A stretch of 64,000 nucleotides of DNA from Eledone cirrhosa (Eukaryota): contig OZ024741.1 of the NCBI GenBank assembly GCA_964016885.1, positions 307,892,001-307,956,000 of the forward strand. Reading direction: 5' to 3'. Both the position numbers and the translations under genes were made by a program. Numbering within the stretch: position 1 is the first letter of the stretch; the number at the start of each line of letters is the position of its first letter. The notes under the pieces are model-generated. The model was not told the DNA's origin and ran no database searches. It saw nothing but the letters and a program-made list of their open reading frames with translations. Shown here piece by piece: positions 2,695 through 63,847 of this stretch.

Positions 2695-3163
2695 TTAGTT
2701 TTGCGAGGTTTTGATATGAAATCGTGTGTCGAAACAAATATTGTTATACTTGGGCAGGGTCATATTTGTGTAATAATATTGCCAGAATTAATAACAGAAC
2801 ACACTCACTGTTTGGTTGGTTTTCGCTTCTGTGTCTTTTATATCGGTTAATTTAATTTTTTCGGTCCTCAATGTTTACCATTGACTGACCAACGGTCCAA
2901 AATACAGATATAATATAGACACAAAGACATATATATAGTCTAACAAAGTTCTTTCGTTGCACATCTGCAACATCGTCAGTGGTGCTATTATGTTTCCTCC
3001 TGTTATATTGTATGCCTGTTGGTCAGTCAATGGTAACATTGAGGACCGAATAAATTAAATTAACCGATATAAAAGACACAGAAGCGAAAACCAACCAAAC
3101 AGTGAGTGTGTTCTGTTATTAATTCTGGCAATAATATTATACAAATATGACCCTCCTCAACCC
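2695..3163. mobile_element. Penelope-like family A terminal (pLTR) fragment in fold-back arrangement
   Basis: Matches the non-coding end of the PLE at 39436-41992. 3017-3163 is an inverted copy of ~2750-2895. HHR-like core on the minus strand at 2952-2979. Confidence 0.85.
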
Positions 3164-3330
3164 TATAACGCACCAAAGTACTCGATACTTAGGGTAGTAG
3201 AGTGGGTAATAGGAAAAGAGTCAGGACCCCGACGGCTGAACACCGGCCGTTTCGATAGCTAGTTCCGAACAGTTCGGATCTAGCTGTCGAAACGACTGGA
3301 GCTCAGCCGTCGGAGTTCTGACTCTTTTCC
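3164..3330. mobile_element. Asymmetric fold-back element (gaccccgacggcagagctc family)
   Basis: Palindromic ~55-bp arms plus a one-sided extension, abutting (TA)n. Eight copies in the window. Confidence 0.8.
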
Positions 3331-3990
3331 TATATATATATATACATACATATATATATATATATATATATATATATATACATACATATATAAATGAAAA
3401 TTGAGAAATTAATGTAAGCAAGAAGCCAACAGTAATTCAGACATATAAGTGACTATTACGTCAAGATGAAAAATATTTAACGTAAGATATGGGAAAATAA
3501 TTTAATCCCAATTCAAAACAAGTCAAGACCAGAAATTTTATCCACAGATTTTGTGTAATCCGGGGAAAAAAGCAATAGAATCTTAACTCAAAATAAAATT
3601 AAGAGTAAATACTTATCCGTCAATTTGGAAAAATCTGCAAATGCACTATATAGTCTTAAAAAGACTATTTCACGAACATTTTCAGTGGGGTTAGTCACGG
3701 TTGGAACCGTTCCTCAGTAGTGCTCAACGCGTTAACTAATTTTTCCACAGCTAAAATATGCCAGAGGGGAATTTAAAAGCAGGCTAGTCAAACCTCGTGT
3801 GGAATTGAATTAATAAACACACATGGAGACAGAGCTAGTGGCGTCAGAATGAGACGAATGTCTGTTTACAAGAAACAGCAGTCAAAACATTCCGAAAAAA
3901 AAACTCAACAAAAGATATGGAGTTCCGCATAAAGCAATATTATCGCGGTTTTTGAAAGTAGTAAAAGCCTGTATGTATATATATATATAT

Positions 3991-4181
3991 AGGAAAAAGT
4001 ATGACCCGACGGCAGAGCTCAAGCCGTTTCGACGGCTATTTCTGGTCCAGAAATAGCCGTCGAAACGGCTTGAGCTCTGCCGTCGGGTCATACTTTTTCC
4101 TACTTCCCACTCTACTACCCTAAGTATTGAGTACTCTGGTGCGTTATGGTCCATCTGGTTCCTTACCACAATTCCTTTGTT
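3991..4181. mobile_element. Asymmetric fold-back element copy
   Basis: aggaaaaagtatgacccgacggcagagctcaagccgtttcgacggctatttctgg|t|ccagaaatagccgtcgaaacgg...ctttttcct, then an extension. (TA)n on both sides. Confidence 0.85.
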
Positions 4182-4624
4182 ATATATATATATGTATATA
4201 TATATATATATATATATATATATACATACATATATATATAATACACGCTTTTACTACTTTTTCAAGCATTATACTGCGGCCATGCTTGGGCATCATATAT
4301 TGACTTCTAATGTGGCGATATTAGTAGCCCACAAAACGGGATGAACTCAATAATTATAAATTATTATATAGGCTGATTCATTCATTTTTCTTACAACCTA
4401 GCTACAGAGTTTCAACAAACCATATATTTTCTAAGTTTCATCAGAGAAATATTCAGGTGATCTGGCTTCTGTCAATATACATTGATTAGATAAAAGAGAG
4501 GGAAAGGAGGGAAACAAGGTATAGGGAATTGCTATTGTTATTTGAAAAATTCTGTCTCAAAATAATTAAAATAAGGGCTTTCACTATATATTCACGTTAT
4601 TGTTGTTGATGTTGTTATAAATAT

Positions 4625-4830
4625 GATTTCTACTCTAGGCACAAGGAAAAGCAATTTGGACGGGAGGGGAAAGTCGATTAAGTTGATCCCAGTGCATTAC
4701 TGGTACTCTATTTTATCGACCCCGTAAGGATGAAAGGCAAACCTAAGCTCGGCGTGATTTGAACTCAGAATGTAAAGGGCCATAAATCTATGCTGCAAAG
4801 CATGGCGTCTGACGCTTTACCATAATAGCA
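4625..4830 (-). mobile_element. SINE family 1 copy
   Basis: ttttatcgaccccgtaaggatgaaaggc...gatttgaactcag motif. Confidence 0.85.
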
Positions 4831-60479: not shown

Positions 60480-60530
60480 AGTTTCAGAAGATCCCGTTAA
60501 GGGTGAAAGCAGCGATTCTTTGCTTAAACT
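60480..60530 (+). ncRNA. Variant hammerhead (CAGAAGA core) at the PLE 3' end
   Basis: AGTTT-CAGAAGA-tcccgttaagggt-GAAA-GCA-gcgattctt-TGC-TT-AAACT. A second copy is at 51501-51551. Confidence 0.62.
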
Positions 60531-60599
60531 TTAATCTGTTATTTTAATAAATATAATATAAATATATATATATATATATATATATATATATATATATAC

Positions 60600-60872
60600 G
60601 ATATTAAATAAATGGAAATTATATTTATAAAACCATATTTATTTCATTATATATATTTCAGGGATATCATATTAAAAATATGTTATGCCTTCTTCAGACA
60701 AAATACAATATAAACAGTCTTATAAATAGATAGATTCGACATACCTTTCAACTTCGACTTGCATTTGAAAAGTTGATTTGAAAAGTTTATTTAATATCGT
60801 AAATATACTCCAAATACTTGTTGGGTGCTTTTATATCAGTTATAAATATTTACTCGTTGTAACCCAACAATT
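60600..60872 (-). mobile_element. Family F-related pLTR fragment with HHR and short fold-back
   Basis: Flanks match 7843-7890. tcttcag at 60691-60697 and tttc at 60656-60659, with a different stem II. Confidence 0.72.
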
Positions 60873-61717
60873 TAAATAAAACTTTGCATATATATATATA
60901 TATATATATATATATATATATATATATATATATATATATGAGAAGTTACTAGTTAAAACAAATGAGACCATAATCTTAAGTAATCTATACTTAAGGAGAG
61001 TGCATATATTATTATCACTATATATATATATGTGTGTCTGTGTGTGTATGTGTGTGTATACATACATATGTATGTAAGTATGTATATATGTATGCGTCTG
61101 TCTATGTATGTAAGTATGTATGCATGTATCCATGTATGTATGTATATTGTTTAATGTAAATGTCGATGTGTGTATAAATATATAACACATTCATAGAAAT
61201 TCACAGATGTATCTACGTCGAATAAACGTGAGTAAGAGTGAGCGGCGTACATATGTACCTGTGTAAGTTTTCGGATGCGGGCGCCCCTCTCACTAAAAAG
61301 ACTAGTCTTTCAAGTGGCTTGACTCTATGCACATAACAAGTACTCATGCGTGTATAAATTGCTGAATAGATAAAAAAAAAAATCACAATGAAATAAACAC
61401 AAAAATAAATGAAATAAATGAAAAAGGCACACGGCCCACTTGTAGGTTGTATGCCCCGGGAATTATACATGCGCACGTACACACAATTACATATAAGAGA
61501 CATTTTAACTCTTTGTGATAAATTGAGAGCAATTTATTTTGGAGATCATCTCACATTATACATGCTCATTTTCACACAGATGCTCACAAACTTACCTATA
61601 TATTCAGATAAATCCATTTATACACTTCTTTTCTTTCATTCTTCTCCTATCTCTCTCACCCCTCACCATCTCCTTTCCTCGCTCACTTTACCTTATATAT
61701 ATATATATATATATATA

Positions 61718-63847
61718 TTTCGTTTCTGAATTTGTTTAGCAAGATTCTTTATCTGAAATCGTGTGTTGAAACCGATATTGTTATACTTTGGGAGGGTCAT
61801 GTTGCCAATAAGAAACACACGCACCAGTTGCTTTCACTTCAATTTAATTTATTATATATTTATAAATTTACAAATTTATAAATTTCTGGTTGGTTGGTTG
61901 GTTCCACAACCAGATAGTTGTTTATATATATATAGTCATAGTTCTTTCGTCACACACTCTGTGACCTCTTCAGTGACTGGGGATTTCTTTCTTCGTTTCT
62001 GTGCCTTTCCTTTCTTCTATCCTACGCCATTTTGTTTGTGTGTGGGTTGCGTGCTCAGTTTGCGCATGCGCCACATCTGGGTGTCTGTGTGTGTTTGTGT
62101 TCATTTTTCTATTTTTTCTATTTATATTTTTCTATTTGTTTGTTTATTTATTTATTTATTGTTGGTTGGTTGTTTGTTCTATGTGTGTGTGTGTTTTCAT
62201 TTTGTCTTGTGTGTGTTTTCATTTTGTGTGTGTTTTCAATTGTAAGTTGTTTGTTCTATGTGTGTGTGTGTTTTCATTTTGTCCTTAATTGTAAGTTGTG
62301 ATGTTGCTGTTCCACTCATATTTTCTATTTAATTTTGGTTTTAATTCTTTTATGCTTACTGCCTCTGTAATTTGCCTAAACATTGCGTCTTTCTTGTGTG
62401 TGGATTCTATTTTTATTTCTATGCTCTCTAATTTACCCCTGTGTTCTATCTTAGCATGTTGGTAGAGCACAGATGATTCTTTATTATCTTGGAGGTCTCG
62501 CCAGTGTTCATTTATTCGTTCCCCTATACTACGAGCTGTCTCACCTATGTACACTATATTTTTGTTTCTACATTGTCCTTCAGTACATCTTATGCTATAT
62601 ACTACATTTCTAGTTTTACAGTTAATATGGGGGCTTATTTTACGGGTTATACATTTCTTATCTATACATGAGGGTCTTTGGAACGGGTATGTCTTGCTAA
62701 TAAGTGTTTTTACGGAGGTACCAGGTCTTTCTACTATCTTAATATTGAGATTATGTTTCTTTAGGGCCCTTCTAAATTTGTAGGCTAGTTCGCCTCTAGG
62801 GGTTGTATTGATGAACAACCCCTAGAGGCGAACTAGCCTACAAATTTATAAGGGCCCTAAAGAAACATAATCTCAATATTAAGATAGTAGAAAGACCTGG
62901 TACCTCCGTAAAAACACTTATTAGCAAGACATACCCGTTCCAAAGACTCTCATGTATAGATAAGAAATGTATAACCCGTAAAATAAGCCCCCATATTAAC
63001 TGTAAAACTAGAAATGTAGTATATAGCATAAGATGTACTGAAGGACAATGTAGAAACAAAAATATAGTGTACATAGGTGAGACAGCTCGTAGTATAGGGG
63101 AACGAATAAATGAACACTGGCGAGACCTCCAAGATAATAAAGAATCATCTGTGCTCTACCAACATGCTAAGATAGAACACAGGGGTAAATTAGAGAGCAT
63201 AGAAATAAAAATAGAATCCACACACAAGAAAGACGCAATGTTTAGGCAAATTACAGAGGCAGTAAGCATAAAAGAATTAAAACCAAAATTAAATAGAAAA
63301 TATGAGTGGAACAGCAACATCACAACTTACAATTAAGGACAAAATGAAAACACACACACACATAGAACAAACAACTTACAATTGAAAACACACACAAAAT
63401 GAAAACACACACAAGACAAAATGAAAACACACACACACATAGAACAAACAACCAACCAACAATAAATAAATAAATAAACAAACAAATAGAAAAATATAAA
63501 TAGAAAAAATAGAAAAATGAACACAAACACACACAGACACCCAGATGTGGCGCATGCGCAAACTGAGCACGCAACCCACACACAAACAAAATGGCGTAGG
63601 ATAGAAGAAAGGAAAGGCACAGAAACGAAGAAAGAAATCCCCAGTCACTGAAGAGGTCACAGAGTGTGTGACGAAAGAACTATGACTATATATATATAAA
63701 CAACTATCTGGTTGTGGAACCAACCAACCAACCAGAAATTTATAAATTTGTAAATTTATAAATATATAATAAATTAAATTGAAGTGAAAGCAACTGGTGC
63801 GTGTGTTTCTTATTGGCAACATGACCCTCCCAAAGTATAACAATATA
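61718..63847. mobile_element. PLE family B near-perfect 2.1-kb palindrome (two tail-out EN + 3' UTR arms)
   Basis: Arms meet at ggttgt(62806)-attgatga-(62815)acaacc. GIY-YIG ORFs run on both strands (62818-62285 minus, ending at 63336 plus). HHRs at 61934-61978 (-) and 63643-63687 (+). Confidence 0.95.
63643..63687 (+). ncRNA. Minimal type I hammerhead (family B)
   Basis: AGTCA-CTGAAGA-g-GTCACA-gagtg-TGTGAC-GAAA-gaac-TA-TGACT with a perfect 5-bp stem I and a CUA triplet. Confidence 0.85.

What the first reader, a model, noticed from the sequence alone, without database searches (positions are those of the whole stretch)
2944..63687. A hammerhead zoo: ~35 HHR motifs from ~10 families in 64 kb, nearly all nested in (TA)n
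Seen by manual count: 11 (557 array), 5 (310 array), 2 (464 family), 2 (C), 2 (F) plus 1 F-like, 2 (H), 5 (B), 4 (A, some degenerate) and 2 (CAGAAGA variant). Coding PLEs of at least three families and non-coding HHR repeats share the same target and the same tail-out fold-back geometry. Inference: a local ecosystem of autonomous PLEs and ribozyme-only parasites. Any long transcript through the region on either strand would be cut if the ribozymes are active.
Basis: partly seen in the sequence, partly recalled or inferred. Interest (0 to 1): 0.72.

Follow-up and report, generated by a model that had tools for sequence, protein, structure and literature searches.

The report
Penelope ribozyme ends saturate a genome
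The 38 hammerhead (self-cutting RNA) motifs here sit at the tail ends of Penelope-type jumping genes and of non-coding repeats that are likely moved by the same enzymes, and they are a dense sample of an estimated quarter of a million such motifs in this animal genome, one abundant family of which carries a changed core that is predicted to cut poorly.

Summary
Confirmed: 38 type-I hammerhead cores in 12 families, from 18 insertions; 29 keep all three stems (shuffles 0.06). It is not a local ecosystem. A blind 1-Mb genome sample gives 85-95 per Mb (about 250,000-285,000 in all). The window is about 3-fold rich in insertions, and two young arrays give 16 cores. Three families are 3' ends of coding Penelope-like elements (two Neptune-type, one Hydra-type). 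The 557- and 310-bp arrays are non-LTR retrozyme-like; no partner enzyme could be assigned. Arms end in (TA)n at one of two fixed sites, and in 53 of 57 back-to-back insertions the two arms use different sites, which fits one dimeric enzyme priming from both DNA ends (inferred). The Hydra-type family has A for U at core position 4: only 70 of 17,750 exact copies are canonical, so cleavage is probably not needed for its spread. No RNA data; cutting untested. The classes are known. The scale, the arm rule and the U4A family were not in the papers searched. This scan noted the first two before, on other DNA of this genome.

The parts
2688..3160 (.). Family B two-armed fold-back; core at 2979 (minus), stem I only 2 bp; left arm long end, right arm short end
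3400..3880 (-).
   Evidence: (3309 candidates, 40 scored)
7001..7240 (-).
7740..10270 (.). Family C two-armed insertion, cores 7937 (minus) and 10101 (plus); the one window case where both arms pass the short end
11081..11503 (.). Family F remnant; half core near 11275 (minus) and core at 11442 (plus), whose predicted cut site is joined directly to the family's long tail; junction unique in the genome
11504..17672 (+). 557-bp non-coding array, 11 cores (11951 to 17527), single arm ending at the short site in (TA)n; retrozyme-like, very young family
17707..19058 (.). 310-bp non-coding two-armed array, 2 cores minus and 3 plus; short and long ends about 30 bases apart
19059..19314 (.). Family B small fold-back without core; long and short ends
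19378..22045 (.). Family H two-armed insertion, cores 19473 (minus) and 21861 (plus)
22510..23380 (+). Family A, 5'-truncated PLE: GIY-YIG remnant, core at 23134, long end
24247..25134 (.). 464-bp family, two-armed; both cores (24523, 24986) decayed here, three-stem relatives elsewhere
26076..26527 (.). Family B fold-back, core at 26270 decayed
39425..41995 (.). Family B two-armed PLE; 384-aa RT-EN frame 40079-41233 (minus) with CX4CxxC linker; cores 39663 (minus, decayed) and 41713 (plus)
42036..43237 (.). Family A two-armed PLE remnant; GIY-YIG fragment; cores 42285 (minus, G8 changed) and 43060 (plus, stem I mismatch)
51415..51575 (.). Hydra-type (CAG) family small two-armed insertion; U4A core at 51506
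51680..52155 (.). Family F fold-back; three-stem core at 51911
58246..60560 (.). Hydra-type PLE, two-armed; 389-aa RT-EN frame 58387-59556 (plus) with YRDDG and CxCX5C; U4A core at 60485
60599..60890 (.).
61718..63845 (.). Family A two-armed PLE, arms 99.5% alike; GIY-YIG frames 62285-62821 (minus) and 62815-63336 (plus); cores 61973 and 63648

Best explanation
The cores lie at the 3' ends of Neptune-type and Hydra-type Penelope-like retrotransposons and of short non-coding repeats that are likely copied by the same kind of enzyme, and such elements are spread over the whole genome, with their ends in (TA)n. Shown: each family examined ends at one of two fixed internal sites, and back-to-back insertions nearly always pair one short end with one long end. 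Inferred: a dimeric PLE protein cuts both strands of a TA repeat and starts cDNA from both DNA ends, one subunit at each of two start sites, helped by 2-8 bases of TA-like match; the two cDNAs stop at variable points and are joined head to head. Inferred, weaker: the 557- and 310-bp units are cut by their ribozymes and copied several times round a circle, or from partly cut multimers. Inferred: cleavage is optional for coding PLEs, because a U4A family and a 2-bp-stem family spread to thousands of copies. Dense windows would arise because each insertion leaves TA runs that are targets for the next.
For: Density: 85 canonical plus 10 U4A motifs in 999,600 bases at preset coordinates, shuffles 0-2; block bootstrap 62-131 per Mb. 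Exact genome counts: CAG 17,750, A 14,737 (75), 310 12,626 (88), B 2,573 (71), 557 812 (70); reversed-pattern controls 0. Target: 87 of 95 sampled motifs lie within 300 bases upstream of (TA)4+, against 27% of control positions. Coding link: GIY-YIG Pfam hits; A and B cores follow Neptune-type EN frames, CAG cores follow the Hydra-type frame; same-strand PLE protein upstream for 8 of 20 A, 4 of 9 B, 3 of 21 CAG anchors, against 0 of 14 (310), 0 of 33 (F), 0 of 9 (H), 0 of 4 (G), 0 of 3 (464), 1 of 23 (C) and 2 of 177 (557), the last three hits being neighbouring A/B-type insertions. Arm rule: 16 of 16 clear two-armed 557 loci, 13 of 14 in the window, 14 of 16 CAG loci, 10 of 11 in the sampled DNA: 53 of 57. 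Frangieh 2024 (PMC11167929): a PLE protein predicted to be a dimer cuts and extends both strands, starts at two internal RNA sites that define the tail, and inserts without ribozyme activity in vitro. U4A: 70 of 17,750 canonical, and in the 5 distinct loci viewed the U sits at a 5' junction; a full 3,259-bp tandem unit has U4A in both pLTRs. Circular monomers fold well: z -4.1 (557), -3.4 (310), 40 shuffles each.
Against: No cleavage or expression data. 4 of 57 two-armed insertions break the arm rule (window C, L067, L179, L184). No sequence link ties 557, 310, F, G, H, C, 464 or J to a coding family, and only two query proteins were used. Both PLE types leave the same footprint, so it does not name the helper. 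The anole PLE starts at sites without homology to the target, unlike the TA-like matches here. 557 units are too alike to tell circle from multimer: most are identical in and between arrays. 5' ends cluster 6-20 bases after the cut site (8 of 50, expected 1.3) but none at +1 to +5, the window was chosen after looking, and a second cluster (9 of 50) sits at an A/T-rich stretch. The hammerhead fold is never the predicted minimum-energy fold (2.5-8.8 kcal/mol above, 11 of 11 families). The TA-distance test is inflated by TA runs inside family F. The 557 and CAG loci were taken from top or first-listed hits (36 of 431 candidates; 19 stretches from the first 100 of 17,750).
Confidence: 0.72

Rival explanations
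1. Ordinary PLE debris: all families are pLTR fragments of coding PLEs whose frames were lost by 5' truncation, and the arrays grew by DNA-level tandem duplication.
For: A, B and CAG are exactly this. Truncated single and inverted PLE hammerheads are known (PMC4209133). Li 2026 proposes local amplification of pLTR-derived units.
Against: 557 units are 100% alike on 12 contigs, occur as multimers in both arms with variable inner junctions and fixed outer ends, and the 71-84% relatives found are matched over the whole non-coding unit. Unequal crossing-over would not give two opposed arms with one short and one long end.
Confidence: 0.15
2. A special local hot spot or host-domesticated ribozyme cluster that cuts a spanning transcript.
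For: The window tops 12 control windows: 30 motifs against 0-14, 13 events against 0-7.
Against: TA content (5.2%) equals the first 400-kb sample (5.3%); flanks hold 9 motifs in 90 kb and 6 in 100 kb; families are dispersed; no strand bias; 9 of 38 decayed.
Confidence: 0.05
3. One-ended priming plus later repair: the second arm is made by fold-back or template switch of the first cDNA, and the tail comes from endonuclease resolution (the reading given in Craig 2021).
For: Craig 2021 describes inverted 5'-truncated copies and a one-sided 30-40-bp tail, ascribed to EN-mediated resolution. Single-armed 557 insertions use either end (11 short, window included, and 8 long).
Against: Arms differ in copy number and inner junction, and the long arm holds sequence the short arm's end lacks even in families seen only as monomers; two RT start sites were later shown in vitro.
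Confidence: 0.08

Closest known systems
[quoted passage not shown]
   Same: Type I, short helix I, long helix II with an extra base between positions 9 and 10.1 (families A, B), tiny often palindromic helix III, single truncated copies and opposite-strand pairs; a 2-bp helix I is known from D. virilis Penelope.
   Different: Counts there are 2,000-9,000 per genome; here an estimated 250,000 (descriptors differ). U4A is not named in the parts read.
Metazoan non-LTR retrozymes (Cervera and de la Pena 2020, PMC7229834, parts 2-3 of 6 and passages; Li 2026, bioRxiv 10.64898/2026.07.22.740005, parts 1-3 of 5)
   Same: Non-coding, AT-rich tandem units with one type I hammerhead each, self-paired circular fold, co-occurring with PLEs, which both papers propose as the movers.
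   Different: 557 bp exceeds the 170-400 nt circles of the 2020 paper (within Li's 51-972 bp). Two opposed arms, fixed ends and (TA)n targeting are not in the parts read ('inverted' and 'microsatellite' 0 times in the 2020 main text). Circular RNA not shown here. Density 85-95 per Mb against about 4.5 per Mb in axolotl (126,247 in 28.21 Gb).
Hydra clade of PLEs, including Hydra-1_Obim (Craig 2021, PMC8557442; passages, section 11, supplement search hits)
   Same: C-terminal EN, CxCX5C linker, CxxC and CxH around E and N, DKT, (TA)n insertion; RT region resembles the printed Hydra-1_Obim rows (by eye).
   Different: Hydra elements are said to carry canonical hammerheads universally; this family has U4A and a CUU triplet. 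RWK reads RWR; unit 3.26 kb. Its motif differs from the one listed for Hydra-1_Obim.
Neptune/Nematis PLEs (Craig 2021)
   Same: C-terminal GIY-YIG with CX2-5CxxC linker (here CX4CxxC) and microsatellite bias.
   Different: Clade not resolved by a tree here.
Anole Poseidon PAc (Frangieh 2024, PMC11167929; parts 1-2 of 4 read)
   Same: Two internal RT start sites giving an optional tail; both strands cut and extended; ribozyme dispensable in vitro.
   Different: Tails here run from about 30 to 120 bases; start sites match the TA target; the pairing of one long with one short arm is not described in the parts read.

Membership tests
Type I hammerhead ribozyme | Core CUGANGA, GAAA, UH in type I order with stems I-III | tested here: met
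   27 of 38 canonical and complete; 2 more complete with U4A; 9 decayed
Type I hammerhead ribozyme | Compensatory stem changes between relatives | tested here: met
   Stem II of A against B: two double-sided changes in 6 pairs (by eye); varied paired stems in C-type families
Type I hammerhead ribozyme | Rfam model score | tested here: not met
   0 matches at gathering score; E-value mode not run
Type I hammerhead ribozyme | Self-cleavage after UH | not testable with these tools
   Needs an in vitro assay
Type I hammerhead ribozyme (CAG family) | U at core position 4 | tested here: not met
   70 of 17,750 exact copies
EN+ PLE (A, B, CAG) | RT followed by C-terminal GIY-YIG EN | tested here: met
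   Pfam GIY-YIG for two A frames, none for the B and CAG frames; B is 57% identical to the A EN; atlas neighbours with GIY-YIG/RVT_1 in a minority of members; YRDDG and GIY-like motifs in CAG
EN+ PLE (A, B, CAG) | pLTR with hammerhead, partial tandem, inverted truncated copy, one-sided tail | tested here: met
   tandem unit at L175 (87)
Hydra clade (CAG) | CxCX5C linker; CxxC and CxH; DKT | tested here: met
   against section 11
Hydra clade (CAG) | RWK motif; canonical hammerhead | tested here: not met
   RWR at L175; U4A core
Hydra clade (CAG) | RT phylogeny | not tested
   Reference proteins were seen only as printed supplement text; compared by eye
Neptune/Nematis (A, B) | CX2-5CxxC linker before GIY-YIG | tested here: met
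   CX4CxxC in both
Neptune/Nematis (A, B) | RT phylogeny | not tested
   No labelled references on hand
Non-LTR retrozyme (557, 310) | Non-coding tandem unit with one type I hammerhead in each repeat, no LTR | tested here: met
Non-LTR retrozyme (557, 310) | Dispersed copies and self-paired circular fold | tested here: met
Non-LTR retrozyme (557, 310) | Expressed linear and circular monomer RNA | not testable with these tools
   No RNA run was offered
Non-LTR retrozyme (557, 310) | Target-site duplication longer than 4 bp, when present | tested here: inconclusive
   Ends lie in (TA)n, where a duplication cannot be read

The most novel reading that the evidence does not exclude
This genome, probably an octopus, is the most hammerhead-dense animal genome among those in the papers read (about 20 times axolotl per Mb). 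Its insertions record a general PLE rule: a dimeric enzyme primes both broken DNA ends at two different RNA sites and can run many times round a ribozyme-made RNA circle. The U4A Hydra family is either a natural ribozyme knock-out that still made over 17,000 copies, or an undescribed active core variant.
Probability: 0.4. Interest if true: 0.72.

Novelty: new variant of a known kind. Interest (0 to 1): 0.5.

Why it matters
How PLEs make their tandem and inverted insertions, what their hammerheads do, and which enzyme moves animal retrozymes are stated as open in Craig 2021, Cervera 2020 and Li 2026. The long/short arm rule turns the two start sites seen in vitro into a testable model of the whole insertion. 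The U4A family is a natural test of whether cleavage is needed. About one motif per 10-12 kb also means most long introns would carry some, so the host must tolerate them or they must be mostly weak. The window itself is not special.

Tried and rejected
Rfam gathering scan: 0 matches. Pfam: no family for the B and CAG frames. A DNA search of the genome with the CAG end returned nothing because very common words are skipped; replaced by exact patterns. Sequencing runs: no RNA holder listed; laying contigs of 4 runs on part of the 557 unit showed only presence, with thin cover in three other organisms, and no joints; not used as evidence. Motif at 4444 rejected as chance. ATGATGA-repeat hits near 47520 rejected. 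First guess of Naiad for the 58387 frame dropped: EN is C-terminal and the linker is Hydra-type. Circle against multimer by array-private variants: uninformative. 5'-end test: L147 (gap), L167 (same locus as L148), L161 and L162 (ambiguous short arms) were dropped before counting 50 ends. F junction at the cut site: unique in the genome, 1 match, so only an anecdote. An ancestral canonical CAG subfamily was looked for and not found among 5 distinct loci of the 70; one 81% relative with a canonical first half has a broken GAAA (L104). A B subfamily with a 4-bp stem I: 24 matches against 2,573 cores, patterns not identical. A scrambled-order hammerhead in the core-less fold-back family: no CUGANGA seen by eye. 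Host gene or intron: not testable without RNA or annotation. Look-ups by sequence in earlier findings: nothing. Literature searches with no direct report: hammerhead+Penelope+octopus, hammerhead ribozyme+cephalopod+retrotransposon, Penelope+twin priming+inverted, hammerhead+U4A; a 2026 octopus repeat annotation has 'ribozyme' 0 times in its main text. Supplements of the bioRxiv preprint are closed, those of the other papers except Craig 2021 were not opened, and subscription papers and Repbase/Dfam were not searched; any of these may hold these families.

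
Full report
Observation. The window is AT-rich animal DNA full of microsatellites, at C2:307.89-307.96 Mb of a 3.0-Gb assembly. An octopus is likely: the CAG frame resembles the printed Hydra-1_Obim rows by eye, and a 200-bp interspersed repeat looks like an octopus SINE (recalled, not tested). I count 38 hammerhead cores in 12 families (my labels), from 18 insertions. 29 keep core and three stems; shuffles give 0.06 +/- 0.24. Rfam finds none at gathering score. The failures are all 4 B, 2 of 5 A, both 464 and one F. Two arrays give 16 cores. 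There is no strand bias outside them (13 plus, 9 minus).

Local or genome-wide. I took 40 stretches of 10 kb and 10 blocks of 60 kb at preset round coordinates, plus about 190 kb of flank. The same search gave 85 canonical and 10 U4A motifs in 999,600 bases, against 0-2 in three shuffles; block bootstrap 62-131 per Mb. That scales to about 250,000-285,000 (range 190,000-390,000). Exact patterns for five families alone give 48,498 matches. The window has 30 hits in 13 events, against 0-14 hits and 0-7 events in 12 control windows: about 3-fold rich in events, upper tail but not unique. Published counts: 126,247 in axolotl, over 6,000 in coral, about 5,000 in mussel (PMC7229834), about 9,000 in Xenopus (PMC4209133). 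Descriptors differ, so the comparison is rough. The sample covers large contigs only.

What the families are. A and B follow GIY-YIG frames with a CX4CxxC linker, the Neptune/Nematis mark. Their stems II differ by two compensatory pairs and carry the extra base after A9 that Cervera 2014 describes. CAG follows a frame with YRDDG, CxCX5C, and CxxC/CxH around E and N, the Hydra marks. A full tandem copy elsewhere (L175) has a 3,259-bp period, DKT, a 645-aa open frame and a frameshift in the EN. No own frame was found upstream of 557, 310, F, G, H, 464 or C anchors or in 6 J loci, using two query proteins. The 557 unit is very young: many copies are 100% identical over 481 bases on 12 contigs, with 812 exact cores; its 71-84% relatives match over the non-coding unit. 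F forms about 470-480-bp arrays elsewhere. No sequence link to a helper was found.

The arm rule. Elements end in (TA)n: 87 of 95 sampled motifs lie within 300 bases upstream of (TA)4+, against 27% of control positions (inflated somewhat by TA runs inside F). Each family examined has two fixed 3' ends. For 557 they lie 79 and 197 bases past the predicted cut, both at TATAT in the unit. Of 36 other loci, 16 are clearly two-armed and all 16 pair a short end with a long end; 2 more with very short second arms do too; single arms use either end (10 short, 8 long; the window's own array is short). In the window 13 of 14 two-armed insertions follow the rule, among CAG loci 14 of 16, and in the sampled DNA 10 of 11. 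Total 53 of 57, with four exceptions. I saw this before opening earlier findings; several notes report the same rule for other families of this genome, unchecked by others.

Mechanism. Craig 2021 describes inverted truncated copies and a one-sided 30-40-bp tail. Frangieh 2024 shows in vitro that an anole PLE protein, predicted to be a dimer, cuts and extends both strands and starts at two internal RNA sites that bound the tail. I infer that one complex primes both DNA ends, one at each site, much as L1 twin priming does (recalled), and that the cDNAs join head to head. Since insertions run through intact cut sites and both arms can be multimers, the template is a circle or an uncut or partly cut multimer. 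Array-private variants cannot decide. 5' ends cluster 6-20 bases past the cut (8 of 50, expected 1.3), but none is at +1 to +5 and an A/T-rich stretch shows a similar cluster (9 of 50), so this is weak. Circular monomers fold better than shuffles (z -4.1 and -3.4).

Is the ribozyme needed. The CAG core has A at position 4 and a CUU triplet, with stems intact. Of 17,750 exact copies with any base there, 70 have U; the first 100 listed all have A; in the 5 distinct U loci viewed the U lies at a 5' junction. Perreault 2011 (passages and section 8) says most core changes cost much activity and names U4C, not U4A. That U4A and CUU cut poorly is recalled, not tested. Family B keeps its core but has only 2 bp of stem I next to it (24 against 2,573); D. 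virilis Penelope is a precedent. A further fold-back family has the same two-armed, TA-ended layout and no CUGANGA that I could see. With the in vitro result that ribozyme mutants still insert, cleavage looks optional for PLE-type insertion. The claim that any long transcript would be cut is therefore doubtful.

Verdict. The classes are known: PLE pLTR hammerheads and non-LTR retrozymes, whose PLE origin a 2026 preprint argues. The 'local ecosystem' reading fails. Not found in the searches, or in the passages of a 2026 octopus repeat paper: the genome-wide density, the long/short arm rule and the U4A Hydra family. Cutting, expression, circularity and the helper enzyme are untested. Interest 0.5; new variant of a known kind.

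Noticed in passing
window 3165-3333, 3970-4180, 10440-10570, 23940-23981, 28650-28840, 38018-38250, 38820-39040, 57750-57940: Abundant small fold-back family ending in (TA)n with long and short arms; it has a GAAA-stem-UC half but no CUGANGA seen; the fold centre is nearly fixed. 17 pattern matches in about 1.19 Mb of sampled DNA.
   Followed up: partly
window 11465-11491: F core joined at its predicted cut site to the family's long tail, directly before the 557 array; 1 match in the genome. Could be a template jump onto a cut RNA end, or chance.
   Followed up: yes
L099-L100 (C3:180.04-180.06 Mb) and L066: F-type arrays of about 470-480-bp units; in L099-L100 two stem II variants recur in a higher-order pattern.
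   Followed up: no
L136, L137, L142, L148 (557 arrays): A few variants are shared by several units of one array (e.g. 425G>A in both arms of L137; 329C>G in two adjacent units of L136), most units are invariant.
   Followed up: partly
L038, L048, L134, L141: Older 557-like relatives at 71-84% identity; L038 starts about 10 bases past the cut site and ends at the long site, with the same stems I and III and a different stem II.
   Followed up: partly
window 2408-2601 and about 20 other places: About 200-bp interspersed repeat, SINE-like (octopus SINE by recall), one copy inserted inside the C insertion at 9520-9715.
   Followed up: no
window 57267-57665 (minus) and about 5100-6600: Remnants that look like non-LTR retrotransposon coding sequence; weak DUF6451 hit for the first; the second by eye only.
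   Followed up: no
window 60-1738, 46200-47900: Long (CAA/GAC)n, (CACAC)n and (ATC)n arrays with strong strand skew.
   Followed up: no
L113-L124 (C8:40.0 Mb, C14:20.0 Mb): Two 60-kb control blocks have no (TA)6+ runs and no hammerheads: a different sequence domain.
   Followed up: no
sampled 1 Mb: 29 distinct stem III/cut-site strings among 95 motifs; triplets GUA 48, CUU 19, AUA 13, GUU 6, CUA 5, GUC 4. Many families are not in the window.
   Followed up: partly
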